Shown: in pieces, positions 1 through 64,000 of the stretch | How the letters are laid out: every line of letters begins with the position of its first letter | Numbering within the stretch: the first letter of the stretch is position 1 | Assembly: GCA_963632335.1 (NCBI GenBank) | Contig: CAVGUA010000109.1 | Coordinates: 21,982 to 85,981, forward strand | DNA length: 64,000 bases | Direction: 5' to 3' | Origin: Parabacteroides goldsteinii | GTDB taxonomy: Bacteria; Bacillota_I; Bacilli_A; RFN20; CAG-826 | Made by a program: the position numbers and the translations under genes | Notes under the pieces: model-generated | The model's database searches: none | Told to the model about the DNA's origin: nothing | What the model saw: only the letters and a program-made list of their open reading frames with translations

Positions 1-3000
1 ATTCTAAACAACATCTTTTAACCTATCACTAAAAAACGATTTATTTTGTTGTATATCATATAAAGAATCGGATTTTTTTAATCCGAAATTTTCTGCAGCA
101 GTTTTTGCCATTACGCACCCTGCTGATTGAACTTTAGTTTTTGAAGAATCAATTTTTACAAGTTCTCCATTTAAAACAACAGTGTTTTTTCTGGAAAACT
201 ATTTGCCTGTTGGACTGATTGCCATTTTTTCATCTTCTTTGACTGCAATTAAACATTTCTAAATTAAGTCTTTGTCGAAAACTTTCTATGTTTTAAACCT
301 TTTAATTAAATCGTTTGTAAGCGCAGTCTGATCTCCTTTCTAAAGTTCATTTATCGTTAAGCTAATTACTTTTTTTGCGGCCTCAATGTCAGCTTCAGTA
401 AATTTCTTTGTGTTGAACTTGTATAAAAGATAAATAGCATCTGTATCCAGCATTGAAAGTCTTCTTGATACAACGTCCTTCTACTCTACCGTAGTAAAAA
501 AAGCATCATAATGTTGCAAATCAGACCCTTTTTTCAAATAATTGCAAACACTTAATATTTCTCCATTATTTATCTTAGTTATAAAATCACGACGATCAAT
601 TGGAGTTTCTAGATATATTCTATTTGTCTTTACAGTCTTATTGTCATCATATGATTTATATTCATACCAATTGCCACATTTTATCTGTGAATAATCAATT
701 AGATTTATTCCTTCGTCTGTAGCTCGCCATGTTGGAGTAATAGCATCGTTATTTTCAATTAATGTAAAAATTGGATTATCTCTTTCTAAAGACTATAAGT
801 ATTCAACATACCATAAAACAAGATTCTCTGTTGTATACTCAGGTGGAATGTTATTGTTTTGTTTTAAATAGGTTTTGTATTCAGTTGTATATTTGATTTT
901 GTTTAATAATTTTTCAAATAAATCTTTAGAGCCAAATTTTGACATTGCTTCTGCCTGAATATTACTATATAACCTACCATTAAAAATCTTTATATGACCT
1001 TTACTTGGATTTAATACACTTAATGAACCATCCCACTTTTGTTTAATTCCATTTTTATTTAAAAAAACTGATAACTCTTTATAAATTAAACTGCTAATAT
1101 TCGCATTATTCGTTGGGGTTTTTTCAATGAATTTGTTTAATATTTCTTTAGTAATGCCACCTTCTTTTTTTATTTCTAAAACTAAATCATTACAAATATT
1201 TTTTACCAATTCAGCCCCGTCGTTACCATGTAATATGTTGTCAGCAATAACTTTTAAAGTCGACTTTTTAAATTCAATTAATAATTTTTCTTTGTTTGTT
1301 TTAGCATTTATATATTCTGCAAATGGAATTAATATCTCCGCTATATTTGCTAAAGACATATTTGCCAATGTAGTATAAAGTTGACTTGCATATTCAGACG
1401 TATAACCACCATGCGCTGCAGCGGCAATAACCTATGTCATTAAAGAAATTTCTGCAGAATCAGCCGCATGCTCCTTGTCTAACTATATACCTGCTTCTAA
1501 TAATTTTACTTTAAAATACTAAAGCGGACTGTCATTATAATAACTATCTTTTGAATTTATATTGGCAGCACCATGTTTTATTGCGCCTGCTGTTACTATT
1601 AAATTAATATCAGAATGTTTTAATGGCTAGTAAACATCATCTTGGCTTATAATAGTTTTATTATTTCTATCAACAATCTCTCCAATTTGATTTTGTAAAT
1701 AAACAACATTTTTTATAGAGTTTTCTGATTGCACGAATACGTTTGATTCTGCACGTTCTACAGAATATTGCCTACCAAATAGGCACCATAAGTCATAATT
1801 ATTTTTAAGCCTTACATTAAAATCAACATTATTTTCAGCATCAGTGACAGAAACAACCTCTAATCCTAAAGCTTTTAATATTTCATATTTCTTTTGATTA
1901 TCAACAATATTAAACTGACTTAATACTTTACCACCAATACTTTCTTTATTTATTGCTGATTTTGCCATTGCAAAATCAATTTGGTATGTCTGTGTGTTTT
2001 TGTCAAATTTGATATTTTGTAATTTATATATACTATTACCTAGCTAAAAATAAGCCTAGCTGCATATTGTATTTACTATATTTTCTCCTAAAAAGTTTTT
2101 AGTAATATCATAATTTTTTTCTTCTCCATTCCGATCTTTCCAATTAATTTTTGTCATTTTTTTCATTAAGTTTCCGAAAAGACCAACTGAACTTCCATCT
2201 ATTATATTACCGTCACTCTTTAATATTGTAGAATTAGTTATAGCAAATCCTGCTGTTTTAATAATACCACCACAGCCTATTGATTTATGGTAAAAATGTA
2301 TAAACGGTTTTGTATTTGTACCAACAGCAGCAGAACCAAGTGAATTATTCATCTGATAAACATCAAATGGATTAGTAAAAGTCGCACCATCGTAAGGTTT
2401 AACACCGTTTTCAATACTACCATTGACATTATATAATGTATCTTTTATATCCTCAATAACAGCAATATTATAATCTTCTGATATTCCATTTAATTTATTT
2501 AGAGAAAACAATTGTTTAGATGCTGTTTCAGAAACATTACGCTTATTCTAAGCATTAAAGCGAGCAGATTCTTCATTTATAGAATTAAAGTCAACTAAAT
2601 ATTCTCCAAGTTTTGGTGGATGACTTGCATGCGAGCCAACTGTTGACAATAAGAATTCTTGACCAAACAAGAACTAAAATAAATTATAACGCTCAATTAC
2701 TGGATTTAATTTAAACTAAATGTTCTATAATTTCCCTAATGTCTAAATACAATCAGATAACGTATAATCAGCATTATTTACTTTATTATAATCAGAAAAT
2801 TCCTAAGATAAATTTTGTAAGGCATTTAAATGTTTTAATAAAACAGGCGAAATTTCCGCTTTTAAAATATCATGTAATTTTGCTACATTATTGTCTATTT
2901 CAACATTGTTTCTTATGTCTGTAATTATATTTAAAATAGACTTTGTATTATCAGACTGCTACCCCTTAAAGAAATCATAAATGTTATCAAAATTCTTTGA

Positions 3001-6000
3001 AAAGTATTCATTTATTTTTGCTTTAATTTCAGCGTTTTCAAACAAATGTATAAGATCTAATTTATTAGAAATATCAATTGTTTTGATAATATTTTGATTT
3101 TCATCAGTAAACTAAAGACGCCCTAAAACCATCTGTTTTGTAGTTTCTCTAATCCATGATTCAGACACATCACTCCAACCCGGGTTTTTGTCTTTACCAT
3201 TTAAAATTTGTTCAAGCTTTTTCAATTCATTTTTGCCTTCAACATTTGACAAGTCAATTTCAAATTGACTATCAATTAAGGATTTTAGAATTTCAATATT
3301 TTGCAGCTGCCAAAATTTAGTATCCGTCTAAAAATCATGCATCTAAACAGATTGTGTGCCATCAAATTCTATTGAAGCGTTATCAATTTCAGTCCTAAAC
3401 TGATCATTTGATGAAAAACGATATGCATTGCCTACAATTGTTCTATTCCAAGCAAGGCCTTTTATTTTTGTATATGTTGTGTTTTGATTTTCATCAATCG
3501 TCTGTACAATTCTATTTTCAGAACCATAATATACCTAGTCAATTAGAGAAAATAAATTTGTTGGATGTGCAAGATTATAATCCTTGACTATTTCTTTTAA
3601 TACACTTTCTGCACTTCTATTGCTCCCGAATTTTCTAAAAACTAAAGCATTAAAAGATCTAAAATTATCATTAAGAGGGTTGTCTATTTTTGCGAATTCA
3701 CCCCATTTCGCATCATTTTTAAATGAGCTAAACAAATTTGCAAAGTCTGTTTTTATTGTATTAAATACCTTTAAATAATAATTGCCAATTTCTGTTTTAA
3801 TAGCACTACATAGTTCATTAATAGTGCATTTATATGCCTCTTTGTTTTCTTTTGGTAATTTTAATATCTTATTTAAATCAATAATTAGTTTTGCAATTGT
3901 AGTTTTATCTGCATTTACGGATGGTAATATTGCTATTTTTCTGTTACCGACGAGTGCGGAACTTGCAACATCATCGCCCTATAAAAAACCTCCAATAAAA
4001 TCATACAAAAAGTTTGAGTAGTTATACTCGTTTACATTGAAATCAGTTGCCTTTTTAGATGTTTCTCCATTATAGTACTCTTGAATGGTATACATTCCAT
4101 TATACAAATCAAATAAACTAAAATTTTCAGCAGGAGTATCTTTACCGCAAAGCAAAGTCCATTGGTCTCTAAGTTTACCATAAAGCCTACTTGCTGAAAC
4201 GGTTGTTAAAGTACTATAATCACTCATTTTGACGCTTCTAGAAGAAAGTAAATTTTCTCTATCAAGCAAGAAAAAAGCAATATCATTTTCAAGCAAACCA
4301 GCTTTGTTCATACAAACATCAAAACCGTCAATATTATCAAGATATGCTGGTTTATATTCGTCACCGAAAAAACTTAATATTTTGCTTTTTTGAACATAAG
4401 GAGTGACCTATGTGCCATTAGTAAAATAGTTTTGAATAGCAATTACTTTTAATGCATGCATTGCATACATAAATAATGATTGACTAGCATTAGATGATAT
4501 TCGCTGTATAAAATTATTTTCAAATTCATTTGTGCTTAAATTTATTCCAAGAACATCATTTATAAAGCATACAATACTTTTTGCATTATTTTTAAAAAAA
4601 TCAGCTTTTACATTTATTTTATCATTTGATCCAATTATAATATTATTGTTTTCATCAAGTTGTATAGAAACAGTTTTTTTAGTGTTATCTATTTGAATAT
4701 TGTATTTATCTTTTAATAAAAGATATTCAGATAAACAATTTTTGTTATTAAATTTTTCTCTTATTTCTCTAACTTTATTTGATACAGCATTTGATGATAT
4801 TTCTTGAAGTATTGTTTTGCCTTGATAATCTGTATAATATTGACAATGCCTGACCGAAACTAAAGAATTAAAACTTTCACACAAATCTTCAAAATAATTT
4901 TTATTTCTATTTGTTATGTCGTTTTGTATGACATTTATGGTATAGGAATTTATATAGTCAGTAAAAGCGTATCTAACAGATTCGTTACCGTTAAATATGT
5001 ATTTATTTAACGAATTTAATGTATCGTTTACTGACTAGTCAAAATTTTTAATATTTAACTATTGGAAAATTTGATTTCTGACGTTTTTTGTTCCAATTAA
5101 ATCAAATAGAATCGGAAAATATTTTTGTGGATTCCTTGTCGCCTCTGAATAAAGCCTGCTAAATGTAAAATTGTTTGCATTTGAATTTTTGATATTACTA
5201 TCATTTGCTAAATAATCATTTAGCTCTAAAAATGTTTCGTTACCATTTTGGTCTATCAATACGGAATCTTGTCCAAAAAGCCACTTGATTGTATCTGCAT
5301 TTAAATCTTTTAATAATGTATAAAAATCAGCTTCAATACCTTGAAAAATATCCTCAAATACATTAAACAAACTTTTGTGGTTTAAATTATTATTCTAAAA
5401 CAATAAACGTATTGATTCAACAGCGGCGCATACATCATCCATTTTTAAGTATTTATTGTATTCAGATGTATATTGACTTTCTTTTGGCGTCATTTCAAGC
5501 ATTATCTTTACGCTTATGTCTGTTTCATCCATGAAATTTACATCATTATCACTAGTTCGCCATGTATCTATAATCGCATTTGATTTTTTTATTACAGAAT
5601 ATTGCTTGTTATTAAAGCTGCCATCTGTTATAGTGCCATGTTGAATTTTATTTGGCAAAACAATTTCAAGCAGACTGTCAAAATGAGTAAGCAAATGCCA
5701 TGCTACATAAGCATCATATTTTTGACTGTCTTGGCTTTTCCATAGCATTGGCTCGCCAACTTTTGCAACACCATTGCTTGCTAAGTCATCATTAAACAAA
5801 GTATTAATTGCCTTGCTATATTTTTGCATCACATTAGTATATGTATCTTCATCATATAAACGTTCAAGCATTACATCAGTATAGTTACTTTTTAAAAAAG
5901 TAACTACTTTTTGCCAAAGATTTTGTTGGTAGTTTTTTATTCTATCTGTCACTTCAGAATTATCTTCAACTCGTTTTGCAAAGCCATTTTCCCTATAAAC

Positions 6001-6480
6001 AAAGAAACATTCTCCTAATGCAAACTTCACGTCGTTTAGTATCACTGTTTGTTCTTCTGACATACCAACCAGAATGTCAGCCAAGAAATTTTTGTCAAAG
6101 TTTGTATTTAACGTTTTTGAATCAGAAATGTCATCAAGCACCTCCAATTTTTCTTTAGGTGCATTGGCTTCTTTATTTTGTTGTATAGCCTAATCACAAA
6201 GTTTTTTTATTTGTTCAGTAGTTGGGAAATGCTCTTGATAAAAAGCACTCCAATCGTCACCTGCCTTAATTACATTGTTTAAATCCTGCTCATACGATGA
6301 ATAAAACGTACCTGGATCAACAATTGCATCTGGTCTTGTTAATTCATTTTGTATTAAATTTTTATACGCAGAATAAAACATTTTTTTTGCTTCGTCTTTC
6401 GACACCTCATTGTTTTCAATATATGTAAAAACTTCAGTTAAGCCGTCAAAATCAAGAGTATTCAGTTTTATGCAATTCAT
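1..6480 (-). CDS. Giant virion/ejected-type protein, first 2,160 codons (3' end lies beyond window start); function unassigned
   Basis: Nine track fragments (793, 1627, 2056, 3535, 3979, 4408, 5059, 5395, 6190) share one frame and each ends in TAG. I read every gap triplet by triplet and found no TAA/TGA from 1 to 6480. The ATG at 6478-6480 follows the terminator T-run; the alternative ATG at 6493-6495 sits inside the hairpin. Confidence 0.8.
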
Positions 6481-6490
6481 ATATAAAAAA

Positions 6491-6522
6491 ATCATTGCCA
6501 ACAGACGTCTGTTGGCAATGAT
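6491..6522 (-). terminator. Rho-independent terminator after the 3,657-aa gene
   Basis: Perfect palindrome atcattgccaacagac/gtctgttggcaatgat about 27 nt past the TAA at 6550. On the minus strand it is followed by a T-run (plus A-run 6485-6491). Confidence 0.7.
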
Positions 6523-6549: not shown

Positions 6550-9500
6550 TTAAGAACCAAAAAAATCATTAATGGCCCGACTGCCTAAATAACAACTGTC
6601 TTTATTATTTTTCTCAGTCGATTCAGTATCTGATTTACTCTATTCAGTACCTGGCCTTTTACTAGACGGAAGCGTTACTGTCTGCTTAGTCTATTCAGTA
6701 CCTGGTATAACATTTTGTTCAGGATTATTGTTAAGTAACACATCGTTTGACGTATAAATAAAAACAATATTTCCTTCATCCGTCTTAACAAAATCACAAT
6801 CTAACTAAACTTCTTTCCCCTTTATTATTACTTTAATATTGCTACCGTTTTGTTTTAAATTATAATGATTATTTGTTTTTTTTGCCGTACCGCTAATTTC
6901 AACATCAGCAGGAAGCTTAACTATTTCAGATCCATTATCATATTTTAATGACATAACAAATAGTTCTTTCCCGTGCGTTACTAGTTTTGTGTCCTTATTT
7001 AATTCATTATATTTTATTACTAAATCTTTAGTTGTTTTTAAATTTAAACCTTGCAGATATGTTATTTCATCAGACGTTATATCTAATTTTTTATTCAACA
7101 AAATTTCCCTAAAATTTTTAGATAAAACAGCTTCTTTATTTAATGCATTTTTAGCATATCTATATTTTGTTGAATTAGATGAACGCGTCCACGAATTACC
7201 ATTTGATTGTATAATGGTATGCGTCTTTTGCTTACCTTCATCTGTTATATCAGTTTCTTTGTATGTCTGTATATCAAACAGTTCTTCACAAGCATCAATA
7301 TTTATTTGGAACAAAGGACTATTTATTTCTCCTAACATCATAAAAGACTATCCGTCAACTTGAAATCTATTATTGGCATCAACACTAACATAGAAGAAAT
7401 CATTATTGTTTTCCAATACATTTTTAGAAGTATCAGCTTTGCATCTTATTGATATATATTGTATTTTATTTTTTTGTAACGAATCAACAATAAGCTATAG
7501 ATTGTTTGATGTTTTATGAGGGATTCCTTCAATAATATTTGTTGTACCATCATGTTTTAAAAGATCTGTTTCTTCAGTTAAAAACCAATCAAATCCTTCA
7601 TTTTTTATTTTAAGCGTATCCGAATAATAAACTAAGTTTAAAAGAAGTAGTCTAAAAATCTTATAAGTATCTACAGTTGATTTTAAACCTAAAAAGTCAA
7701 ACAAATCCGTTTCTTCTTGCGATGTTAACACGACAGATAAAGCTTCATTATAAGTTTTTAAATCATCTCTTTCTTTTAACAGCGCATTTGCTTTTTGTTC
7801 GATTTTGTTTAAAAGCTCTTTTACAAGATTTATTTTATACTCACTTATTCCGTCAGAATTACAATTTGGGTCTACTTTCTGTGGATTCTATATTGCTTCT
7901 AAAAAACTTTCATCGCCCCATAATGTTTTTATTAAATGATATGCAGTGTATTTTGTGCCATAAAAAACATTGCTATTCTTTTTTTCTTTTATTGTTTTAT
8001 ACAATAATTCAATATATGCGTCAAAGTTTGTTTTAAAAGCTTCATTCTGCTATTGCATATCCATTTTTGACATATCAGCAATTGGAGAGTGTAATAAGAC
8101 AATAGAAACGCTTTTAACCATTTTAGGATTTTCTTGTTGTTTAATAAATATATTTAACAACTCTGCGGAAGAAGCGTTGCGTAAATTCGGATTCTAAGTA
8201 ACAAGAATAAACGGAGTATGATCAGGTATATTAATATCTCCAACTTTACCATTTGTACTTTTTAGACCACCAATCATAATATTTGAAACTGCCTCAAAAT
8301 TTTTAAATGTCTCATCACTTATCTCTTTTACTGTTGGGAAATAATCATTTTGAACATTATTCGTTATGCTAGTTCTTGCTTTTGAAACTACATAGCTTCC
8401 TATTGAGTGGCCATTGTTTTCATATGGACTAAACTTTTTTAATTCTATAACATAAGCTCCACCTTTGATATAGAATTTAATTAACTTGCGCAAGTTATTT
8501 AAATACTTTAAATCAGGAGTATCTAAATTTTTATTAGCCAAGAAATTATCAAGTAGTCCTACTACTTGCTATAACTTTTTTAAATCAATTTTTCCAAACC
8601 AAATTTTTTGTAACTAATCACTAAAAGATTTTAAATCACCAGTAAATTCATTTTTAAATTCATAAATTTCTGCAATTAAACTAAATGGAGACCTCAAGGT
8701 AAATATAGGTAATTCCAAAATATCACCGTCTGATTTTGTGCCAATTACAAGACTGATTGTTTTTTTTAATACACCATCTTTTTCTTCGGTTTTTCTTACA
8801 TTTAATACCTAATCATATTCTTCGCATAATAAAGTTTTTGATTCAAATGATTTTAAATCATTTGATTTTTTACTATTTACACTATCAATATATTTTTCTT
8901 TAGTGCTTACAACGTTACATGATTTAAATATCCAAGAGACTTCAAAGTCAACATTTGAAATATCAAAATCAAAGTATTTATTAAATGTTGCACTTAACCT
9001 TCTTAATAAATTTTTTTGACTTGTTGCGAACAATACATCTGAACGAAGCTAATTTAAAATTTCTAAGTATATAACTTTTTCGGTTCTCCCATTATTAACA
9101 TCTATTCCATCTTTTAATTTCCATCCTCTCTATTCTATTAGTTTTTTTAGTCCATTAACAGAATCTATACGAAAGTTCACATCCTAATCCAACATTTCAA
9201 CATTACCATTGTTGTCAAATTTAACACCTGGCACTAATGTTGTTTGTGTATAAACGGTCATAAAATTATTTTTTAACCCACCACCATGATCTTGATTTAA
9301 AAATTCATCAAAATGTGGCTACTCTAATGGTGCAAACTATATAGTAACATCATTTACTTCTTCATCATTTAGAGTGCCTGTATCAATTAAAGTTTCAGGC
9401 ACAATTGTTTTTTCAGAACCTTCTTCCAATAAATTATCAAGAAGTTTGCTTCCTTTAGATTGTGAAGTCTGAGTAGTGGTTGTTTGTGGTGGCGTCGGCT

Positions 9501-40680: not shown

Positions 40681-40695
40681 AAAAAAAATATTATA

Positions 40696-40733
40696 AATTG
40701 CACACAATACTACGTCTAGTATTATGTGCAATT
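40696..40733 (-). terminator. Rho-independent terminator
   Basis: 17-bp stem with a 4-nt loop. The single mismatch is C.A on the plus strand but a G.U wobble in the minus-strand RNA. T8 follows on the minus strand. Confidence 0.65.
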
Positions 40734-40745
40734 TAGGAAAATATA

Positions 40746-49953: not shown

Positions 49954-50238
49954 TTAACATATGAGCTACGTCTAGACAGAAGGTTCGTCAATTATACGTC
50001 TATTTATTTTATACATATAAAAGCCGTCAACATTCATCCCACGTATTTGCTCTTTAAAAAATTTTAAAAATTTTTCTTCTGGTAAATCACCTTGAATAAT
50101 AGTAGGCGCATCAACATCTGGTATACCAAGTTTTACTATGAAACCATATTTTGTCTACTCTAATTTTAAAGAGCCAACATAATCACAATCCCATGTTTGA
50201 TTTATAATATTTATCAAATCGTTTTTTGTCATATACAT
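49954..50238 (-). CDS. 94-aa hypothetical protein
   Basis: The ATG at 50236-50238 overlaps the TGA region of the upstream gene. Three in-frame TAG, TAA at 49954-49956. Confidence 0.6.
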
Positions 50239-54571: not shown

Positions 54572-55411
54572 TTATTCCTTTGCAGCTGCATAAAGGTCTG
54601 GATAAGTATCCCTTCTAATCAGCTCCAAAACTTTATTATTCTTTGGATCTTTCATCCAATTTAATACTGCATCTTCAGTTGCTCCAAGCACAATATTGTC
54701 GGCATAAATATACAGCTTGTTTTTAAAATAAATGACCTTTTTATCTCGTGCATCAATAGATAACATACGAAGTGCACTATCAGTGCCAGTGCAAATCTGA
54801 ATTATCTTATCAGGGTCGGATTCAGCAACAGTCATAAGGTAATCTTCAACATCAGTGTCCATAACACCATCCATATGTTTTCCAAGGAGTTTTGCAGTCA
54901 TCAAACGTCCTTCTGCGCCCTTGGGGTCGTCAACAATAAGATTAAGTGCTTTGCGATACTTATCTTTCTTTGACACTCTACGCTGCGCTTCTTCACCTGG
55001 CTTGTCAACATAAAGTTCCGCAATGCCATATCGAGGATTGCGGTTATTCCAGCCCATCGTACCATCAATAAGGCTATTACCATTGTTATCCTTCGCATAT
55101 CGATCGGGCGCAATATAAGGACAATTCTTTATTGCCTCCCATGTCTTACGCTCAACTTCGTCATTTAAATTGAAAGTTTGTCCATCAGTAACTTTTATTA
55201 CGTCATATTCACCAATATAATAGGCTCCACTATTACGTTCTGCATCGGTGAGAATTAAATCGCCACTAGCGTTTCGATGCTTAACGCAATCTGGCCATTT
55301 TCCTGTTTTAGGATCCTTGGCAGGCATAATAAAATACTTTTGTCCAACCTTGCCATATACGCTCCTTAATACAATAACATTGCTTGTTAAATCACTTTTT
55401 TTAGCAACCAT
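54572..55411 (-). CDS. 279-aa abundant-type virion protein, contains no TAG
   Basis: An intact ATG-to-TAA ORF in the track. Higher GC than its surroundings. It sits directly downstream of the putative capsid gene and its terminator. Confidence 0.85.
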   Translation of the reverse strand: MVAKKSDLTSNVIVLRSVYGKVGQKYFIMPAKDPKTGKWPDCVKHRNASGDLILTDAERNSGAYYIGEYDVIKVTDGQTFNLNDEVERKTWEAIKNCPYIAPDRYAKDNNGNSLIDGTMGWNNRNPRYGIAELYVDKPGEEAQRRVSKKDKYRKALNLIVDDPKGAEGRLMTAKLLGKHMDGVMDTDVEDYLMTVAESDPDKIIQICTGTDSALRMLSIDARDKKVIYFKNKLYIYADNIVLGATEDAVLNWMKDPKNNKVLELIRRDTYPDLYAAAKE

Positions 55412-55504: not shown

Positions 55505-55982
55505 TTAGGATTCACGGATAATGAATGACCTATAAGGGTTGAATACTGCAATACCAGCGTAGCCCCAGTTGATAAGCTTAGAACCTGCAACAGGGCTAGA
55601 AACAACACCGCTGCTGAGACCGTTTTCGCCACCAACGCCAAGATACTTATTCGTAATAAACTCGCCACCCTTTAAGGTGAAGCAAGCAATTGCTGGCTGG
55701 TTCTTGGATTCGTCAGCCGTAAGGTCAATCGCTACCATGTAACCCTTTTCAGAACCGTATTCACGAGTGAGCGCACGGTCAACAGTGAATGAAACCTGAT
55801 TGCCTGCATACTCATATGCGTTATACGTTGCGCCAACCTTAATGTCGCCGCCAGCAGCCTTAGAGTAAAGATAGCAGCCGTCGGTCTTGAAGTTAGCAAG
55901 ATAATCGCCAAGAGTGGTCTGAATATCATTCCAGGCTTTCTGATTGCAAATGAAATGATCAATTTTGTTAATCTTAAATTCT
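55505..55982 (-). CDS. Putative major capsid protein, exon 2 (5' boundary approximate)
   Basis: The frame is open from an in-frame TGA at 55982-55984 down to TAA at 55505-55507. There is no start codon for about 80 codons, so it cannot be translated alone. GC-rich and TAG-free. Confidence 0.6.
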
Positions 55983-57125
55983 CATTTAAGTTCAGACTAT
56001 ATCTTCATCTTATTTTAACGGTTTAATATTTTTTTTGTCTCCTATAAAAAATCTCCATCTAAATCCTCCGCAGCGTTTTTGTAATCCTTTTATTGCTGCT
56101 GTAATATTTGACGGTGTTTTTATTTTATTTCCCCTTGCCGCTTCAGCAATACTTGTGTAAGATTCAATAAAAAAGCCTTCATCATTATATTTAGCCACGG
56201 CTATTCCAGTATGTTCAAAATCAAAATGTCTTTTAAAAGACCAGTAGTAGCCATAAGCCTATTTTGATTTTTTGTTACATACATTACTAATTGCGTCCCT
56301 TGCGGCTGATTGATTTTTAAATTCTTTAGAAGCCTCAGTTATAGATTTCCAAATTTTCAAAAGATTGCCAAGCAAATCAAATTGATAAACAACCTTTTCT
56401 TTTTTTATTACTGGTTCAATATTATCAGTTTTGCCTAAATAATATTTCCACTAAAAATCACCGCAATATTTACTTCTACAGCAAACCGCATTGTAAATGC
56501 CTGTCAACCCCAACTCTTGTTGTGCTTTTTTTATTGATGGCCAAGTTCTTATAAATACTCCATCCAAAGTATATTGAGCAATTTCAATTTCATTAACCCA
56601 ATTCATTGTTATTTTGCCGCCAATAGTTAAGTTATAATTATTGCTTGATTTAACAAATTCTGGCGTTACTAATTCGGCTTCGTATTTATATGCCTCAAGC
56701 ATACCTTCTGTTGTATCAGGAAATATTTTTAAGGTTTGTCGCTTAAAATTAGAATATCCATATTTTAATACCGCAGCAGGAAAACCTCGTGTGTTTTTTT
56801 TTGAATCTTTATGAGTAACTCCACAACCTATATATCCATCAAATATATCAGGATTTGTGTAATGTACTCCAATATAAATTTTACCGTTAATTATATTTGT
56901 TGTTTTATAAACAATATAATTCATAAGATGTTAAACATTTAGTCGTTGAACGTCCCTCCCTTTCGGAGGTCTTCGCTGCTGATTGCCCAATCTTTATGAT
57001 TTTCTAGCATTCACATTCATTATTACTAATCATTGTTGTAGCTCATAAAGCTCTAAGGGGTTTCCAGCAATTTGAATAATTTATTCATACAGCATTCTCA
57101 TGCTGCCCAAGCTATCATATCATTT
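55983..57125 (-). mobile_element. Group-I-like self-splicing intron carrying a homing endonuclease (boundaries +/- ~10 nt)
   Basis: It interrupts the capsid reading frame. About 200 nt of non-coding sequence 5' of the endonuclease gene contains the hairpins CAGCAU-GAGA-AUGCUG and CCUCC-GAAAG-GGAGG. The sequence GCUUG can pair with the exon end CAAGU (candidate P1). The model UU|...G|A restores the frame: 965+478 nt = 481 codons. Confidence 0.55.
56010..56924 (-). CDS. GIY-YIG homing endonuclease with three NUMOD/IENR1-like DNA-binding repeats, 304 aa
   Basis: Fragments 56451 (TAG) and 56010 (TAA) share one frame; the gap was checked. In-frame TAG at 56451 and 56259. Motifs: YIVYKTTNIINGKIYIGVH, FKRQ, YEAELV, NYNLTIGG. 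The repeats are WPSIKKAQQELG, WKSITEASKEF and YTSIAEAARG. Confidence 0.8.
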
Positions 57126-58090
57126 AACTTGTTGCCACGATCATTTGCGGCTTTCTCATTAAGAGTTGCAATTACTGTATTGAACAACTCGATGGTTGGC
57201 TTGCCATTGTATGCGTACTTCGATGCGAAACGCTCTACCTGAGGCAAGAAGCCGTCACCAATATTGATTGGACGACCAGTGTCAGGATCAACAATAGTTG
57301 AACGACCAGTCTTAGGATTAATGTTGGTCTTGTTGAAGAGAAGACCCTGATTACGAGAATCCATGAAGTTGTCAAGAAGGGTCTTCTGTACGTTGTCCAT
57401 CTTATAAATGGTCTCCTTGCCGTCCTGTCCACCGCCAATCTTAATGAATACATCTTCATGTGCCTTATAAAGAGCGGAATAAGAAATGTCATTACGGAAG
57501 GTGGTGATGTAGTTCCTGTGATGCTCAACAGAAGACTGAGCCTTTACATAACCCTCTTCGTGAAGTTCAGGATGAGCATTAGACTAGAAACGAGTAGTCA
57601 TACCCATCTTGCAAGCGTCAAGGTCAAGCTCAACGTCATAAGAATTGTCAACAAGACGAACCTAAACTTCCCAGAAGTTATCAGCCTTACGAATTGGTCG
57701 ACTTACAACCATGCACTGCTGGCGAGATTCATCAATCTTGAAAATATCGTACTTCTCGTAGTAACGCTCCTTGAAGTACATCGTTATTTCGCTTCCATTT
57801 GCACCAGTGTCGGTTACATCAGCCGCAAACTCTACACGCTTAATAAAGTTTGTCTCAATATCCCATTCAAACATCATGCTATCAATAGACTAGAAGCGAT
57901 TTGCCTTCTTAGTGTCCATGTGATATACATTCATAAGGGATTCAGTAAGGAAAGAAGCACTCAAGTTAGGAAACATACGACTCACAACACCAAGCTTGTG
58001 AGGGCGAGTGCCAAGAAACTTGTAAAAGTCCTCATAGGTATAAGTTTCACTCTATGTGGGCCTTACAGTAACGTAATTTGCTACAATCAT
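57126..58090 (-). CDS. Putative major capsid protein, exon 1 (3' boundary approximate)
   Basis: ATG at 58088-58090, four in-frame TAG. The frame runs on into the intron to TGA at 57098. GC-rich with biased codons. It is preceded by an acidic scaffold-like gene. Confidence 0.6.
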
Positions 58091-58108: not shown

Positions 58109-59230
58109 TTAAAACTAATAATCCAGATCATCAATTGTCATATTAGTTGGCTATCCAAGTGGTTTTGATGCATTTTTAGGTGGAACACGTTGCCGAACAA
58201 TTTTTGATGGCTGATTTTGCCTCGCCTCGTTAATGCCAATATTATAACCCTCCTGTTTTGCTGCCATTGTAGCTCGCTGCACCATATTCTGTATATCCTC
58301 AAAAATACTATCTTGATTCAACAGGAACCATGAAGCCTTTACTAGATTTTCAGGATCTTGTAAAGCCTAGCCCAATCCGCTTGCTCCAAGTTCGTTGTGA
58401 CCCAAAATAAATTGTGCAATATCCTCTGCGTCAGACTGAGTGAGTGCAACGTCAAGATTTCCAATTCCATTAAAATTATTAATAGAATCAAGCACACTGT
58501 TCTAAAAGACTTCTAAACGTTGAGCCTCGGCTTGATGAGCAGCCTCATACTATTGAGCCTGTTGTGCTACCTCGTTGTCTGCAAATTGTTGCCGCAAACT
58601 TGCTACTTGTCGCTCGAATACTGAAGGGTTTAATTTTGCGCTGGCCAAAGACGCCTCTGCTTCTTCATCTGTAATGTCAGGTACCTTAGTAATTAAATCG
58701 GCAATATAAACATCATCATCACTAAGACTGGCAAGCCCACCTTCAATTGGCTTTTCTGCGACCTTAGGCTAAATATTCATAACCGCCTAAGCATACTAAT
58801 CAAGGTATTGCGCAGGAGAAAGTCCCTTCTCGCGAATATTATTTAATAATAATATTTCTTGCTAACTCAAGTCCGTCTAAGGATCTTTATGTGCATCTTC
58901 CAAAATATTGTACTGCTCTTCAGCGGTTAAGTCATTCCATTTTTTTTGAGTTACCAGCCCATTTGGGTCTTGAAACTTAATGCTTTCAGTTTTTATACCA
59001 TTGTTTTCCAGGTAGGTTTGTACAATATCTTTTTCATTTTCAGAATCGCTACTATCATTAGCATACGATTCTTCTTCGGTATTCGTGTATTGATTACGTT
59101 CATCTTCGATAATCTAAGAACTATCAATCCACGGCTTTACTTCTTCACCGCCCGTGTAATCATCTAAGCTTGAATCGTCAAAATTAAAATCAAGCTTACT
59201 TTCATCACCAAGCTTTGTTTCGTCAATCAT
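58109..59230 (-). CDS. 373-aa acidic, Gln/Glu-rich scaffold-like protein
   Basis: Absent from the track because it is cut by about 14 TAG. The hand-read frame is open from the ATG at 59228-59230 to TAA at 58109-58111. It lies directly upstream of the capsid gene. Confidence 0.65.
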
Positions 59231-59276: not shown

Positions 59277-59471
59277 TTATATTTTGTAGTTTATAATATT
59301 TACATGTTCAAAACGCAATGTGTCATCATCTTTTTTAATTTCAATAGAAGCAGCTTCGTTTAAAATAGAAGATAATGTTTCCCCATTGTCATTATATACA
59401 TATTTTGCGTTTGTCCCAATAGGGCGAACCTCTCCATCGATTTCAACCCTTGTTATTACCTTGTCAGCCAT
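59277..59471 (-). CDS. 64-aa hypothetical protein
   Basis: Intact ATG-to-TAA ORF. Its ATG overlaps the upstream TAA (TAATG). Confidence 0.6.
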   Translation of the reverse strand: MADKVITRVEIDGEVRPIGTNAKYVYNDNGETLSSILNEAASIEIKKDDDTLRFEHVNIINYKI

Positions 59472-59755
59472 TAATATTTGTTTAAGCGTAATCCGTATTC
59501 ATGCTTACTAATAGCATCTTTAGTGTATTTCTATAACTCATTAGCACTGATAAAATTTGCGTCCGATTTAGGTGTTAATGTCAAGCTTATTAAAGTGCTA
59601 TAATCATCATTTTTTTTATAATTAGTATTATAAGTATGTACCATATCTTTACCTACATAATAATTCTTTATTGGTAAATCCTGATATTCTACATTAGTAT
59701 AAATTTCATGATTTGGTATACCTATATAAATACCATTTATAATATTCCTAAACAT
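59471..59755 (-). CDS. 94-aa hypothetical protein
   Basis: Fragment 59531..59755 was read through TAG to TAA at 59471-59473. Confidence 0.6.
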
Positions 59756-60024
59756 TACCAGCCGTATTGCAACTCACCATCATCGGTAAGTTCTACACCA
59801 TTAACAAGTTCTGGATTCCATCCTGGAAATAAAAGTGTATCTATCCAATCCGTCTATCCACAAGGAAGGATTCTTGCGCTGACATAGCGAGGAACGCTTG
59901 TTCTTGAAACGGAAATATTTTTTATTAAAAATGCTGTTGGAGATTCAAATTTTTTTGACGGTATATTCTAAACATGCCCAACTTGAATGCTGGCTACTTG
60001 ACCGTCTCTATTCGTTATATTCAT
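59755..60024 (-). CDS. 89-aa hypothetical protein
   Basis: The ATG at 60022-60024 forms an ATGA overlap with the upstream TGA. Two in-frame TAG. TAA at 59755-59757 overlaps the next ATG. Confidence 0.55.
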
Positions 60025-60299
60025 TTTTTGTATTTTTCAAGTTCATCAAGAAACCACGTCAATTTGGTTTCGCCAATCGTCTTTTTCCCAACAGGTAATT
60101 CTCCATTATTTATTTTTCTATCAAAAGTTCGCTCGGAAATGTTAAGCCTTTCAGCGGCATCTTTCTTTGTTAATTTTATATGAGCAATATTTGATATTAA
60201 TTGCAAAGCATCTTCTTCAGATAATTCACAAGTACCTGTTCGTATCTTAGAAGCGTAATCATCTAAGATATTTGCTATTATACTCTTCAAACTTAACAT
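60021..60299 (-). CDS. 92-aa helix-turn-helix DNA-binding protein
   Basis: Intact ORF with a TGA stop. The HTH-like segment is LTKKDAAERLNISERTFDRKINNGELP. Confidence 0.65.
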   Translation of the reverse strand: MLSLKSIIANILDDYASKIRTGTCELSEEDALQLISNIAHIKLTKKDAAERLNISERTFDRKINNGELPVGKKTIGETKLTWFLDELEKYKK

Positions 60300-60338
60300 T
60301 ATTAAAAAAATAAAAAAACAATTTTACAAAATAAAAAT

Positions 60339-60366
60339 ACGGAGGTTAATTCACATTAACCTCCGT
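60339..60366 (-). terminator. Rho-independent terminator
   Basis: 11-bp stem acggaggttaa/ttaacctccgt with a 6-nt loop. T-rich tail on the minus strand. It lies 24 nt past the TAA at 60390. Confidence 0.7.
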
Positions 60367-60389
60367 TCAAATATAATTTTTGTAGGATT

Positions 60390-60782
60390 TTAATCAAATA
60401 AATTTAATGAATTACAATAATCAAATATTATCTGATTAATTGCACCTATTAAATAACACACTTGCTCACTGTCGGCTTTTATTTTGTAAACATCAGCAAT
60501 ATGCTATTGCAAATGTCTAGATTCGTGTGCTATTGTATTTATAAGTTGTGATTTTGTGTCATGCATTCCAATCACCATCACACTTTGCCGCTAAAATAAA
60601 TTTGAATACGTAAAACCCACATTATGAGATTCTTGTTTCATAAGCTGATAAGCGTTGAAGGTTTGTATTTTATTACAATGCAACTTCCATAATTGTTCTA
60701 TTATTTCTCCAATGTGGTATGTATCCAACGCAATAAATAGGTGTATTTCCCATTGTTCAATATTAAATTCATATTTTATCAC
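60390..60782 (-). CDS. 130-aa protein with HExxH motif (possible mini zinc-metallopeptidase)
   Basis: The GTG start at 60780-60782 overlaps the upstream TGA (GTGA). Two in-frame TAG, TAA at 60390-60392. The motif is ...NTIAHESRHLQQH... Confidence 0.5.
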
Positions 60783-61195
60783 AACATTTCAGACCAATCG
60801 ATTGGCGTTCCATTACAAACACATGTTGCATAAAAACGAGTAAATACCAATCCTTCGCAAGCGTCTTGATCGTCAATGACATCTTTAATATATAAAGCTA
60901 TCTACTCTTCTGTTTTTATTGAAGAACCTAGAAAATCCGCCTTTACCATAGATGCAATATAAACATAATCATATAGCTCGTTATTTTCAAGTGTAATTTT
61001 GAATTTATTTAATAACTAATCTACTTGCTCTTTTGTGTATGGTGTTATTTTCTAAAGTTGCCCTGCACTATCACGCTTTTTCATTTTACCAACAGCAAAC
61101 TAATAAAGTTTGTTGTTAAAATGTTTGCCATAATGTTTTAAATAATTCAACATATCAGGAGGCAAAACATCATAAACATCTAAACTATTACGCAT
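60779..61195 (-). CDS. 138-aa hypothetical protein
   Basis: Absent from the track because it is cut by four TAG. Open from the ATG at 61193-61195 to TGA at 60779-60781. Confidence 0.6.
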
Positions 61196-61199
61196 AACA

Positions 61200-61415
61200 T
61201 TAATAATCATATCGTCCACCACGACCTTTCTTTATAGACCAGTCGTAGTCTTCGCCGTTTTCTTGCATATAATATTTATCCCTATTTCTAAAGCCACTTC
61301 TAACCGATGTTTCGTCGTTTAGTTTTTCCATAATTTTTTTACCGCAACTAACAATTTTATTAACCCAATTTGATAATTCTTCGTAATTGTCTTCTTCTAT
61401 TGTATAAACTTTCAT
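61200..61415 (-). CDS. 71-aa hypothetical protein
   Basis: Intact ATG-to-TAA ORF in the track. Confidence 0.6.
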   Translation of the reverse strand: MKVYTIEEDNYEELSNWVNKIVSCGKKIMEKLNDETSVRSGFRNRDKYYMQENGEDYDWSIKKGRGGRYDY

Positions 61416-61416
61416 T

Positions 61417-61893
61417 TTATTTTAATTTTTGCGAGAGTATTGAACATATATCATCAAGTTTTGTTTCTATACCTCCTATTTTACTCTCAAGATTATTTAT
61501 TTTATCTTCCTGATCTTTTTGTTTCGCTAATTCAGGATTTAACTATCTTAATATCTATTCTCCTGTTTCTAACACTGACTAATGATATGGTATACTATTT
61601 AAAATTTGCTAGCTATTATTAATCATATTATTAACTTCCTGTATAATTATATCTTTCGAATCACTTATAATGGTTTTGCCATTATCGTAATTAGCAATAC
61701 TTAGCTATCCAGGTAATTGTTTGAAATCAGTTACAACATCATCTATTTTAACTTGTATATCTATCGTCTAAGGCAAATAGTTATTAAAGCCAGTTGACGA
61801 TACAACATTAGAAACAGTTTTTATACTTAAAGCTGGTGGCTCGTCTTTTTGTAGTATATATACTATAGAGCCTGCTCTTAAATTCTAAAACAT
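61417..61893 (-). CDS. 158-aa hypothetical protein with C-terminal coiled coil
   Basis: Absent from the track because it is cut by seven TAG. The ATG at 61891-61893 overlaps the upstream TAA. TAA at 61417-61419. Confidence 0.6.
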
Positions 61894-62201
61894 TAAATAA
61901 TTAGACTAAGTGTATTAGTATGTTTATTAAACAAAACAATGTGTAATCCTATAGTTACTGACGTTAACGTCATTCCTGTAGAACTAGTTAAAGTTTGCGT
62001 CTAGCCATTGTTTGTCTAAAAACTTATACTAGTGGCAGAAGTTGTCGCTGAATCTAAATTAACAACTACAAGACCAGCATTCCCAATGAACCTAAAAGTA
62101 TGGTTTGGTATTGTATACACAGCAACAGTAGAATCAGTTCCTGCCGTTGTTAACGTAGCGTCAATTAATGGAATACCATTTCTATTTCCAATGTAATTCA
62201 T
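61893..62201 (-). CDS. 102-aa Thr/Ser-rich hypothetical protein
   Basis: The ATG at 62199-62201 is 2 nt after the upstream TGA. Two in-frame TAG, TAA at 61893-61895. Confidence 0.6.
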
Positions 62202-62203
62202 AA

Positions 62204-63130
62204 TCAGTTCCAAAATGAATTATTATATCCATATCCAACATATTGGCTCATTGGAACGCCTATAAGATTTGGATAAGTCACAGTGGCAGTTGCAGGTTGT
62301 GCAGCTTTTATCGCATTAAGTTCCTGTTGTAAAGGGCTAATCATTGCTTGAATCGCCTAATTCTACTATTCTTGTGAAATTTGGTTTTGCAATTGAGTTC
62401 GCTATTCTTGTAGATCATTTATCTTGTCCTGTAAAGCATTAGCTTGCATCTAATCGAGCTTGGCTATAATATTTGTTGTCTAATTAACAGTTGCGTCTTT
62501 TATACTCTACACTCCAAGATTTACAGTATTTTGTATTGCGCATGTTTGAGCTTGAGATTCATAAGCATTTGAACTAAAACCACGTTCAAGACCAGTATTA
62601 ACTGTATTTATTGCAGACTATAATGTACTTGTTTGGTTTGCTATAGCAAGTCTGTTTTCACAACAGCAGGATGCTATCTGTTGTCCAAGTGCGGTATTGC
62701 CAGACTGAACCGCATTTATTGTCTGCAAACTAGACATACCAACCTGATTACCAACGTTCTATATAGCAGACATTTCACTGTTTATTGCAGATTTAACAGA
62801 ATTAATATCACAATTAAGCTATGTGGCTAATGAATTAATTGCCTGCTGATTACCTTGTATTGCGCTCATTAATAATTCTCTACCAGTGTCATTGTTTGCT
62901 AAATTAGCAAGATAACCAGTTCCGTCATTACCATTATTGCCCCAACTACCAAACCCTCCGTTACGCATAAGAGGATAAAGAAAAAATAAAAAGATGATCC
63001 ACATCCAATTGCCATTACCCCCAAAACCTCCGTTGTTATTCAATGCCATTAACAAGGCTGGATCAATTGAATTGTTTCCTCCAGATGCGCCAGCTTCTGG
63101 AAAAGTAAAAATTTTTGTACCGTCACTCAT
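62204..63130 (-). CDS. 308-aa membrane-anchored Gly/Asn-rich, Gln-rich coiled-coil protein
   Basis: Fragment 62819..63130 was read through about 13 TAG to TAA/TGA-free end at TGA 62204-62206. The transmembrane-like stretch is WMWIIFLFFLYPLM. The C-terminal two thirds are Q/N-rich heptad-like sequence. Confidence 0.7.
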
Positions 63131-63207
63131 GTTTTAATTAATTTGAATGTTATAATCAAATTTAATTTGAACCATGTTTTTGTCAATATTATAGACAATA
63201 AAAAGTT

Positions 63208-63239
63208 AACCCCTGCAATCTCAATTGATTACAGGGGTT
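63208..63239 (-). terminator. Rho-independent terminator
   Basis: 13-bp stem aacccctgcaatc/gattacaggggtt. The one mismatch is a G.U wobble only in the minus-strand RNA. AACUUUUUAUU follows. Confidence 0.65.
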
Positions 63240-63264
63240 TATTATGTTGACATTTTAATTTTTA

Positions 63265-63735
63265 TTATTTTATTTCAGCAAGATAATCGTCTATTCGACG
63301 AGACAAAAATTCTTGTAAAATTTTTATCTGTTCTGACATTTCAGAAATTTGATTTTGCAACTATTTATTCTATTCCTTTAGCTGTTCATTCTATTCCTAT
63401 AATGTTTTAACCTATTCCTACAACATTTTATTCTGCTGTTGAGTAATCTAATTTTGTGTTGTTAGATTAGTTATCTATGCTTTAAATTCAACATTCTATT
63501 CTCTTAATTCGTCAAGTTGTTTGTCTAATGATTGATTTTGCTAAATTTTTAAATCGAGATTGCGCATGCTATCTTCGTGCAGTTTTTGATAAATCTCCAT
63601 TTGTTTAGCCATATTAGCCAAATCGCTACTCTTTACTTCTGATTTGTATTTTGCCCGTGTAAAAATAAAAGATACAAAGCCAGTACCCAATGCAGACAAA
63701 ATACTTATTATAATTGCTGAGACGGAATTAATCAT
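63265..63735 (-). CDS. 156-aa N-terminal transmembrane plus Gln/Glu coiled-coil protein (holin/spanin-like topology)
   Basis: Fragment 63541..63735 was read through 10 TAG to TAA at 63265-63267. The transmembrane stretch is SAIIISILSALGTGFVSFIF. The coiled coil reads ...QEQVKTLQEQNEQLKEQNKQLQNQ... Confidence 0.7.
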
Positions 63736-64000
63736 GACTAAAAAACTTCTTTATCTTTTTATATATTTTAATATACCACGGAGTTTTTAACTCTTGTATT
63801 TCTGAGGTTAATATTCTAATTGCCTATAAGGCTACTATTGATAACTTTGCATAATCAACACTTAAAAACTAATCTTCATTAACAATACTTGGGATTATTT
63901 TTTGCACTTGTTGCGCAACGGTTCCTATCTAAATGCCTTGCTTTGGATTTTTCTTCCAAATAAACCGTTTTAATGGTATTGAATTTATTTGTTCAAGTGT
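63728..64000 (-). CDS. C-terminus of a tail fibre/spike with peptidase-S74 intramolecular chaperone domain (5' part outside window)
   Basis: The frame is open from 64000 to TAA at 63728-63730 with three in-frame TAG. The sequence ...RFIWKKNPKQGIQIGTVAQQVQKIIPSIVNEDQFLSVDYAKLSIVALQAIRILTSEIQELK matches the S74 pattern (G.iAQeV..v.P..V....l.vdY.kl....i.AiqeL). Confidence 0.7.

What the first reader, a model, noticed from the sequence alone, without database searches (positions are those of the whole stretch)
1..64000. TAG is a sense codon (Gln) across the whole window, on both strands
Seen:
- Every internal minus-strand fragment in the ORF track that I checked ends in plus-strand 'cta' (TAG).
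- Consecutive fragments stay in one frame for up to 11 kb, for example 14 fragments from 6805 to 17523.
- My triplet-by-triplet reading of the gaps finds no TAA/TGA.
- Real gene ends use TAA or TGA.
- The two plus-strand genes also carry in-frame TAG (2 and 7).
The amino acid is identified because TAG falls on conserved Gln positions:
- the Q of the QxxxY motif of the PD-(D/E)xK nuclease (39245-39247);
- the AQ preceding LES(D)WG in the GH73 domain (50619-50621);
- Gln-rich coiled coils, where it alternates with CAA/CAG.
Established: TAG->Gln (table-15-like) recoding is documented in crAss-like and other gut phages, usually described as concentrated in late genes.
Inference: this window cannot be annotated with table 11. 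The recoding also covers an accessory nuclease island and a homing endonuclease, not only virion genes.
Basis: partly seen in the sequence, partly recalled or inferred. Interest (0 to 1): 0.8.

Follow-up and report, generated by a model that had tools for sequence, protein, structure and literature searches.

The report
TAG read as glutamine, crAss-like phage

Summary
Under table 11 the longest ORF is 1.3 kb. With TAG as sense it is about 11 kb, against at most 0.7 kb in 50 randomised sequences, and the window becomes about 37 tightly packed genes. These carry about 333 in-frame TAGs and end in TAA (31) or TGA (7).

TAG means Gln by three independent tests:
- At 146 TAG positions aligned to standard-code relatives, the residue profile matches that of CAA/CAG codons. 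The log-likelihood lead over Glu is 37.
- Between strains 91-94% identical, 86-88% of changed TAG codons become CAA or CAG.

The recoded proteins match their standard-code homologues in length.

The phage is about 156 kb and crAss-like, and it fits the "Zeta" group. TAG, TGA and standard-code branches, intron-split capsid genes and late-gene recoding have all been published for that group. Public gene calls for this phage already read through TAG.

I found no suppressor tRNA or release-factor gene in the window or in 4.7 kb beyond it. About 87 kb of the genome could not be retrieved. A complete 176 kb recoded relative, which I closed from two GenBank scaffolds, has a TAG-free replication arm, a TAG-dense late arm and no canonical tRNA(CUA).

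Verdict: real, correctly interpreted, already known.

The parts
1..6495 (-). giant late protein, truncated by the window's left edge (at least 2165 aa), 30 in-frame TAG
   Evidence: 28% identical to the MT835470 2275-aa protein
6550..17523 (-). giant late protein, 3657 aa, 60 in-frame TAG, stop TAA
17523..19463 (-). 646-aa protein, 10 TAG
19467..24923 (-). 1818-aa protein, 28 TAG
   Evidence: no PHROG match
24955..26491 (-). two genes (106 aa with 4 TAG; 404 aa with 7 TAG)
26581..33309 (-). 2242-aa virion structural protein, 26 TAG
   Evidence: phrog_28748 5.5e-23 and phrog_15100; 39% identical to the MT835470 homologue
33312..37289 (-). 1325-aa protein, 10 TAG
37268..38236 (-). 322-aa protein, 4 TAG
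38333..38620 (+). 95-aa Cys-rich protein, 2 TAG, stop TGA; conserved partner of the nuclease
   Evidence: phrog_13558; orthologues next to the nuclease in MT835470 and MT835539
38624..39454 (+). PD-(D/E)XK nuclease, 276 aa, 7 TAG; TAG at 39245-39247 is the Q of the QxxxY motif
   Evidence: PF12705 30.7 bits (gathering score 22), phrog_298 1.7e-17; orthologues have Q at residue 208
39805..46737 (-). four fibre-like genes (291, 766, 382 and 846 aa; 1, 10, 11 and 16 TAG); the last is collagen-like
   Evidence: weak PF01391 Collagen match on the 847-aa orthologue
46903..47706 (-). 267-aa protein, 2 TAG
47709..49916 (-). portal protein, 735 aa, 23 TAG
   Evidence: phrog_6547 2.3e-53, PF16510; 51% identical over residues 5-730 to the 733-aa standard-code portal
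49954..51191 (-). 94-aa protein (3 TAG) and 320-aa glucosaminidase-like protein (7 TAG; TAG at 50619-50621 opposite Q)
   Evidence: PF01832 26.1 bits, below the gathering score
51191..54560 (-). four virion genes (231 aa ring protein, 223, 319 and 319 aa; 2, 3, 3 and 6 TAG)
   Evidence: PF24228 CrAss_Ring_1 on the orthologue; lengths match the homologues, 231/229, 223/225 and 319/318
54572..55411 (-). 279-aa protein with no TAG (only 4 Gln codons)
   Evidence: exact copies in at least 23 public contigs
55505..55959 (-). major capsid protein exon 2 (no TAG), stop TAA
   Evidence: 65% identical to residues 326-472 of the intact MT835470 MCP; junction
55960..57126 (-). group I intron in the MCP gene; it carries a GIY-YIG/NUMOD homing endonuclease ORF at 56010-56924 (304 aa, 2 TAG)
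   Evidence: RF00028 52.5 bits (gathering score 50) at 57131-56922, plus a 27-bit 3' piece; phrog_314 2.8e-24, PF07453
57127..58090 (-). major capsid protein exon 1 (4 TAG)
   Evidence: PF23898 Crass_capsid 38.8 bits; 61% identical to the MT835470 MCP
58109..59230 (-). 373-aa protein, 11 TAG
59471..61210 (-). five small genes (94, 89, 92, 83 and 143 aa; 1, 2, 0, 2 and 4 TAG); the 92-aa gene is an HTH_17 protein
61417..64000 (-). genes of 158, 102, 308 and 156 aa, plus the C-terminal part of a Peptidase_S74 fibre protein (7, 2, 10, 10 and 3 TAG); the 156-aa protein has an N-terminal membrane anchor and a Gln-rich coiled coil, with the highest TAG density in the window (64 per 1000 codons)

Best explanation
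The window is the late block (virion, packaging and lysis genes) of a crAss-like phage of about 156 kb that fits the Zeta group. In this block UAG is a glutamine codon, as in NCBI table 15, and only UAA and UGA terminate.

**Shown here:**
- TAG is sense.
- TAG means Gln.
- Recoding affects every gene class in the window on both strands, including the nuclease pair and the intron-borne homing endonuclease.

**Inferred from the published model and from a complete relative:**
- The phage infects a standard-code host.
- It expresses a TAG-free replication arm first.
- It then supplies a UAG-decoding tRNA charged with Gln, so the TAG-laden late genes can be translated only late in infection. The code acts as a timing lock.

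The decoding tRNA is not in the window. I expect it in the unseen 87 kb, but it may be non-canonical.
For: **ORF restoration and randomisation control:**

**Gln identity:**
- Across 146 aligned TAG positions, Q is the commonest residue (29%, against 32% opposite CAA/CAG). The log-likelihoods are Q -361.4, E -398.5 and K -410.9.
- Strain-level TAG to CAA/CAG exchanges are 32/37, 15/17 and 28/32, with reciprocal counts 23/30, 16/17 and 28/34.
- Orthologues have Q at both motif positions.

**Full-length proteins:** lengths equal those of standard-code homologues, for example portal 735/733 and spliced MCP 472/473.

**Not an assembly artefact:** the same TAGs recur in independent assemblies that are 91-99.98% identical.

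**crAss-like identity:** Crass_capsid, portal, ring protein and virion structural PHROGs.

**Architecture in a complete relative:** MT835492 and MT835539 join by exact 124-nt overlaps into a 176,324 bp circle. The replication arm at 0-63 kb is TAG-free and about 64-160 kb is TAG-dense. Every homologue of a window gene that lies in MT835492 falls in its TAG-dense minus-strand block, and the portal and the 267-aa gene lie in the TAG-rich part of MT835539.

**Literature:** PMC7886860 (Zeta group: 145-192 kb, introns, TAG/TGA/standard branches, late-gene recoding), 10.1101/2021.08.26.457843 (timing model), PMC9523058 (peptide proof of TAG=Q in crAss-like phages), PMC12386605 (amber-recoded Zeta phages with tRNA-Sup-CTA).
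Against: - I found no tRNA in the window (ARAGORN; Rfam; custom scan) or in the 4.7 kb to its right.
- A local probe found no release-factor homologue.
- The complete recoded relative also lacks a canonical tRNA(CUA), so the step where the phage supplies a CUA suppressor is not shown for this clade.
- The early arm of the window's own genome was not seen, so late-only recoding is by analogy.
- In distant comparisons Glu is somewhat over-represented opposite TAG (18%, against 8% opposite CAA/CAG). The strain-level data do not support Glu.
Confidence: 0.85

Rival explanations
1. TAG is sense but encodes an amino acid other than Gln (Glu, Lys, Tyr, Trp, Leu, Ser or pyrrolysine).
For: Glu is the second commonest residue opposite TAG and is enriched relative to canonical Gln codons.
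Against: The log-likelihood deficit is 37 for Glu, 50 for Lys and 89 or more for every other residue. Between strains, TAG exchanges with CAA/CAG in 86-94% of changes, often by two-nucleotide steps. It almost never exchanges with its other single-step neighbours GAG, AAG, TAT, TTG, TGG or TCG.
Confidence: 0.02
2. The TAGs are real stops and the genes are pseudogenes, or the TAGs are assembly or sequencing artefacts or rare programmed read-through sites.
For: None beyond the table-11 appearance.
Against: About 333 TAGs and no TAA or TGA lie within frames of up to 11 kb, against at most 0.7 kb by chance. The proteins are full length against their homologues. The same TAGs are present in many independent assemblies from different samples.
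Confidence: 0.01
3. TAG is Gln, but decoding does not rely on a canonical phage-encoded tRNA(CUA). It uses a host suppressor, a host with an altered code, or an atypical phage tRNA.
For: - There is no tRNA(CUA) in the window or its flank.
- There is none in the complete 176 kb recoded relative, which instead has two tRNA-like genes with 16-18 nt anticodon loops. One of them has UUA at positions 34-36.
- Yutin et al. and Borges et al. report that many recoded genomes lack a detectable suppressor (about 60% of TAG-recoded genomes in Borges).
Against: - 87 kb of this genome is unseen.
- Other amber-recoded Zeta phages do carry tRNA-Sup-CTA (PMC12386605, Table 1).
- The sharp boundary between TAG-free and TAG-dense arms in the relative argues for a phage-controlled switch, not a host whose code is permanently altered.
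- A UUA anticodon would also read the UAA terminators.
Confidence: 0.12

Closest known systems
TAG->Gln (code 15) recoding of late genes in crAss-like phages (Yutin et al. 2021, PMC7886860; Borges et al., 10.1101/2021.08.26.457843; Peters et al. 2022, PMC9523058)
   Same: The same codon and amino acid are involved, TAA and TGA are kept as stops, and recoding is dense in structural, packaging and lysis genes. Recoding is combined with introns and homing endonucleases, and close relatives use the standard code.
   Different: Nothing of substance differs. The suppressor tRNA and the early arm were not seen for this genome.
Zeta-group crAss-like phages with amber suppression (Babkin et al. 2025, PMC12386605, Table 1: S22M_St_77 at 155.7 kb, ctIv631 at 162.9 kb and 32.7% GC, ctkor1)
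   Same: The genome size class (about 156 kb), the low GC, amber recoding, the MCP split by a group I intron, and the large nucleotide-metabolism and replication module in relatives.
   Different: Membership by TerL phylogeny was not tested, because TerL is not in the window. The listed amber-recoded genomes carry tRNA-Sup-CTA, which was not found here or in the closed relative.
Other stop-codon-recoded gut phages (Lak, Agate, Jade, Garnet and others; Borges et al.)
   Same: The same logic applies: a standard-code early module and a recoded late or lysis module.
   Different: They are different lineages. Several use TGA->Trp and some encode release factors or aminoacyl-tRNA synthetases, none of which were found here.

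Membership tests
Stop-codon recoding TAG->Gln (code 15) in phages | In-frame TAG in conserved genes, with ORFs restored only when TAG is sense | tested here: met
Stop-codon recoding TAG->Gln (code 15) in phages | TAG positions align with Gln in standard-code homologues | tested here: met
Stop-codon recoding TAG->Gln (code 15) in phages | TAA and TGA still terminate, and protein lengths match homologues | tested here: met
Stop-codon recoding TAG->Gln (code 15) in phages | Phage-encoded suppressor tRNA with a CUA anticodon | tested here: inconclusive
   None in the window or in 4.7 kb beyond it. About 87 kb of the genome is unseen. None in the complete relative.
Stop-codon recoding TAG->Gln (code 15) in phages | Early or replication module compatible with the standard code | not testable with these tools
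   The rest of this genome could not be fetched. It is shown only for the closed relative MT835492+MT835539.
Stop-codon recoding TAG->Gln (code 15) in phages | Peptides with Gln at TAG positions | not testable with these tools
   This needs metaproteomics.
crAss-like phages (Crassvirales), Zeta group | crAss-type major capsid, portal and ring proteins | tested here: met
   PF23898, phrog_11589, phrog_6547; PF24228
crAss-like phages (Crassvirales), Zeta group | Genome of 145-192 kb | tested here: met
   Assemblies 91% identical to the window are 156,337 and 156,061 bp. The closed relative is 176,324 bp.
crAss-like phages (Crassvirales), Zeta group | Self-splicing introns or inteins in core genes | tested here: met
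   Group I intron in the MCP gene. TerL and the nuclease are interrupted in MT835539.
crAss-like phages (Crassvirales), Zeta group | Placement in the Zeta clade by TerL/MCP/portal phylogeny | not tested
   TerL is not in the window and no Zeta reference sequences were at hand. Classical crAss phages are only about 22% identical in portal and MCP.
Group I intron with homing endonuclease | Match to the RF00028 core, with in-frame exon ligation restoring the host protein | tested here: met
   52.5 bits against a gathering score of 50. Junction 57127|55959 restores GNK-Y-HF-ICN, against GNK-Y-VL-ICN in the relative. Splicing itself was not tested.

The most novel reading that the evidence does not exclude
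This clade of large crAss-like phages may decode UAG as Gln without a canonical tRNA(CUA). The complete 176 kb recoded relative has 17 tRNA or tRNA-like genes and none has a CUA anticodon. Two tRNA-like genes have 16-18 nt anticodon loops, and one carries UUA at positions 34-36. If the window's genome is the same, the decoder would be an atypical or processed tRNA, or a host factor. That would address the long-noted mismatch between recoding and detectable suppressors.
Probability: 0.12. Interest if true: 0.55.

Novelty: already known. Interest (0 to 1): 0.15.

Why it matters
The practical point is that annotating this window with table 11 shatters every gene, so code 15 is required. Even code-aware public gene calls truncate the capsid protein at 330 aa because they miss the intron.

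Scientifically it adds one more well-supported example of late-gene amber recoding in Zeta-type crAss-like phages, with a standard-code sister lineage only about 50-65% diverged in core proteins. It does not open a new question. The one open thread is where the UAG decoder is encoded.

Tried and rejected
**Attempts to reach the rest of the genome (all failed):**
- Megablast of 20 kb of the window against GenBank phages found nothing.
- The exact-match and protein-pattern scans of IMG/VR found nothing.
- The protein-pattern scans of GTDB genomes and JGI metagenomes found nothing.
- A homology search with the truncated giant protein found only relatives of 40% identity or less.
Only the two TAG-free proteins could be looked up.

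**Probes that landed on other phages:**
- PolA probes gave L012-L015 (36.5% GC) and L019. I could not link them to the window and rejected them as its genome, because the relatives have nearly equal GC in their early and late arms.
- The 804-aa late-gene probe gave L018, a different standard-code phage.

**Other dead ends:**
- PDB sequence searches for the two motif proteins gave nothing usable.
- Relaxed ARAGORN settings gave only artefacts with kilobase "introns".
- ARAGORN's "tRNA-Stop(tta)" calls in MT835539 are atypical tRNA-like genes, not clear suppressors.
- The idea that the two TAG-free genes avoid TAG on purpose was rejected, because they have too few Gln codons.


Full report
**Observation**

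The window has 31.5% GC. Under table 11 its longest ORF is 1323 nt and ORFs of at least 900 nt cover 4.1 kb. If TAG is read as sense, the longest ORF is about 11 kb and that coverage is 55 kb. Treating TGA or TAA as sense gives no comparable gain. Fifty Markov-1 randomisations never exceed 699 nt.

The TAG-sense map has 39 ORFs, two of them spurious overlaps. They are packed with gaps of about 0-100 nt, and all but the pair at 38333-39454 are on the minus strand. Terminators are 31 TAA and 7 TGA. There are 336 in-frame TAGs in 20,621 codons, so TAG is the second most used Gln codon (336 TAG, 539 CAA, 119 CAG).

The plus-strand genes carry 2 and 7 TAGs, and codons 39245-39247 and 50619-50621 are in-frame TAGs. 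There are two corrections. The 11 kb gene spans 6550-17523 with 60 TAGs. The GH73 match is below Pfam's gathering score.

**Which amino acid**

Two GenBank scaffolds from human faeces, MT835470 (117 kb) and MT838543 (5 kb), are relatives that use the standard code. Their portals are 50-56% identical to the window's. I aligned all window proteins to them with TAG masked as X.

- 146 TAG positions were aligned, and Q is the commonest residue opposite TAG (29%).
- This compares with 32% Q opposite CAA/CAG codons in the same alignments.
- Using empirical substitution profiles from those alignments, the log-likelihood is -361.4 for Gln, -398.5 for Glu and -410.9 for Lys.

A second, independent test uses public assemblies 91-94% identical to the window (L006, L009, L011).

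- Of the window TAG codons that differ in those strains, 32/37, 15/17 and 28/32 are CAA or CAG.
- The reciprocal counts are 23/30, 16/17 and 28/34.
- About half the exchanges with the two 91%-identical strains are TAG<->CAA double changes, which are expected only if the change is synonymous.

Reading through TAG to the next TAA or TGA gives proteins whose lengths match the standard-code homologues:

| Protein | Window / homologue (aa) |
|---|---|
| Portal | 735 / 733 |
| Ring protein | 231 / 229 |
| 223-aa protein | 223 / 225 |
| 319-aa protein | 319 / 318 |
| 373-aa protein | 373 / 369 |
| Spliced MCP | 472 / 473 |

**What the sequence is**

Pfam and PHROGs identify the following:
- a Crass_capsid major capsid protein;
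- a portal (phrog_6547, 2e-53);
- a virion structural protein of 2242 aa;
- a PD-(D/E)XK nuclease;
- a GIY-YIG/NUMOD homing endonuclease.

Exact or near-exact copies occur in many public assemblies, two of which are 156,337 and 156,061 bp long. Their stored gene calls already read through TAG, for example the 735-aa portal. L016 and L017 are 99.7-99.98% identical to the window. The six further genes in the 4.7 kb to the right also contain TAG.

Size, low GC, intron content and the standard-code sister lineage all fit the Zeta group of Yutin et al. 2021 (PMC7886860). That paper explicitly reports TAG, TGA and standard-code branches, intron-split MCP genes, and recoding mostly in late genes. Babkin et al. 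2025 (PMC12386605, Table 1) list amber-recoded Zeta genomes of 156-188 kb carrying tRNA-Sup-CTA. Peters et al. 2022 (PMC9523058) give peptide evidence for TAG=Q in crAss-like phages.

**The claim that recoding covers more than virion genes**

The nuclease aligns to its standard-code orthologue over residues 8-276 through 7 TAGs. In both relatives, this nuclease and the small Cys-rich protein next to it sit beside the terminase and portal genes. They are therefore a conserved part of the late or packaging block, not an accessory island.

The homing endonuclease has TAGs at residues 158 and 222, before its NUMOD domains at 179-203 and 255-289, so it needs read-through. It lies inside a group I intron of the MCP gene (see below). 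Borges et al. (10.1101/2021.08.26.457843) already describe a preferentially recoded intron endonuclease.

**Mechanism**

I found no tRNA in the window (ARAGORN; Rfam at gathering scores; a permissive custom scan for CUA/UUA/UCA anticodon arms with a T-loop) or in the right flank. A local tblastn with GGQ-domain probes written from memory found no release-factor homologue.

I could not retrieve the remaining ~87 kb of this genome. PolA-containing loci L012-L015 and L019, and locus L018, belong to other phages.

As a proxy, I found that the two recoded GenBank scaffolds MT835492 (121.6 kb) and MT835539 (55 kb) share exact 124-nt overlaps at both ends. They close into a 176,324 bp circle. That genome has three parts:
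- a plus-strand replication arm (NrdD, helicase, ligase, PolA, ThyX) that is essentially TAG-free;
- a convergent late arm of about 96 kb dense with TAG, up to 128 in one protein;
- a 16 kb stretch of small TAG-free genes with a tRNA array.

All homologues of window genes lie in the recoded part. This is the architecture on which the published timing-switch model rests.

That complete genome has no canonical tRNA(CUA). Such absence is a known and frequent situation: Yutin et al. note it, and Borges et al. detect suppressors in only about 40% of TAG-recoded genomes. The steps "phage-supplied Gln-tRNA(CUA)" and "early arm in standard code" are therefore inference for the window's own genome.

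**Side findings**

*MCP intron.* The MCP gene is split.
- Exon 1 (58090-57127) and exon 2 (55959-55505) align at 61% and 65% identity to the intact 473-aa MCP of MT835470.
- The 1.17 kb between them matches RF00028 above the gathering score and holds the endonuclease ORF.
- A second in-frame junction, 57122|55972, suggested by the covariance-model alignment, cannot be excluded.
- Public gene calls list only a 330-aa capsid fragment.

*Atypical tRNA-like genes.* In MT835539, two tRNA-like genes score 53 and 47 bits with RF00005 but have 18- and 16-nt anticodon loops.

*Possible ribozyme.* In MT835492, a weak HDV-like ribozyme match follows tRNA-Met directly. Theta ribozymes have been reported next to phage tRNAs (PMC10879173).

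**Verdict**

It is essential for annotating this window, but it is an already documented property of this phage group.

Noticed in passing
window 55505-58090 (-): The major capsid protein gene is interrupted by a group I intron of about 1.17 kb (RF00028, 52.5 bits) that carries a GIY-YIG/NUMOD homing endonuclease (56010-56924). The spliced product is 472 aa, against 473 aa in the standard-code relative. Public gene calls list only the 330-aa exon 1 product and miss exon 2. Two in-frame junctions are possible (57127|55959 or 57122|55972).
   Followed up: yes
L021-L023 (MT835492) and L004+L020 (MT835539): These two 'UNVERIFIED' GenBank scaffolds share exact 124-nt overlaps at both ends. They close into one circular 176,324 bp genome of a TAG-recoded relative: 0-63 kb TAG-free, about 64-160 kb TAG-dense, and 160-176 kb of small TAG-free genes plus tRNAs.
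   Followed up: yes
L004 6357-6440 (-) and 6870-6950 (-): Two tRNA-like genes score 53 and 47 bits with RF00005 but have 18- and 16-nt anticodon loops. One has UUA at positions 34-36 (ARAGORN calls it 'tRNA-Stop') and the other has UCC. Neither contains CUA. This complete recoded genome has no canonical amber suppressor.
   Followed up: partly
L021 12473-12540 (+): A weak HDV-like ribozyme match (RF02682, 28.9 bits, gathering score 44, local E 0.002) lies directly 3' of tRNA-Met(CAU) at 12403-12471. It resembles the theta ribozymes described next to phage tRNAs (PMC10879173).
   Followed up: no
about 4.7 kb beyond window position 64000 (L016 position 1; L006, L009-L011): Five independent assemblies start within about 100 nt of the same point, inside a gene. 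This suggests a repeat or hypervariable segment that breaks assemblies, or a fixed genome end. Other assemblies (NODE_40, NODE_154) run through it.
   Followed up: no
L004 24808-26751 (+) and 29562-34322 (+): In MT835539 the nuclease orthologue carries an in-frame insertion of about 1 kb (intein-like) and has no TAG among TAG-rich neighbours. The terminase orthologue is split into at least three pieces with endonuclease-like ORFs between them.
   Followed up: no
window 38333-51191: Gene order differs from MT835470. The block holding the nuclease pair, fibre genes, portal and the GH73-like gene lies between two genes (37268-38236 and 51191-51886) whose orthologues are adjacent in the relative. 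The nuclease pair is inverted, and no terminase large subunit lies in the window or its right flank.
   Followed up: partly
window-wide: In distant comparisons, Glu is about twice as frequent opposite TAG (18%) as opposite CAA/CAG (8%). Strain-level data show no TAG<->GAA/GAG excess, so this probably reflects where TAG-encoded Gln sits (coiled coils, surface positions) and not a second meaning.
   Followed up: partly
window 63265-63735 (-) and L016 3309-3737: A 156-aa protein with an N-terminal membrane anchor and a Gln-rich coiled coil has the highest TAG density in the window (64 per 1000 codons). It lies about 1.5 kb from a Peptidase_M15 endolysin-like gene just outside the window. This recalls the preferential recoding of spanin and lysis genes reported by Borges et al. 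Its TAG share of Gln codons (10/24) is not significantly above the window mean.
   Followed up: partly
L012 3733-7570: Relatives' replication arms carry what looks like a tRNA-repair set: a 461-aa protein whose MT835470 counterpart looked RNA-ligase-like by eye (no Pfam match on record), a PF01743 nucleotidyltransferase and a PNKP.
   Followed up: no
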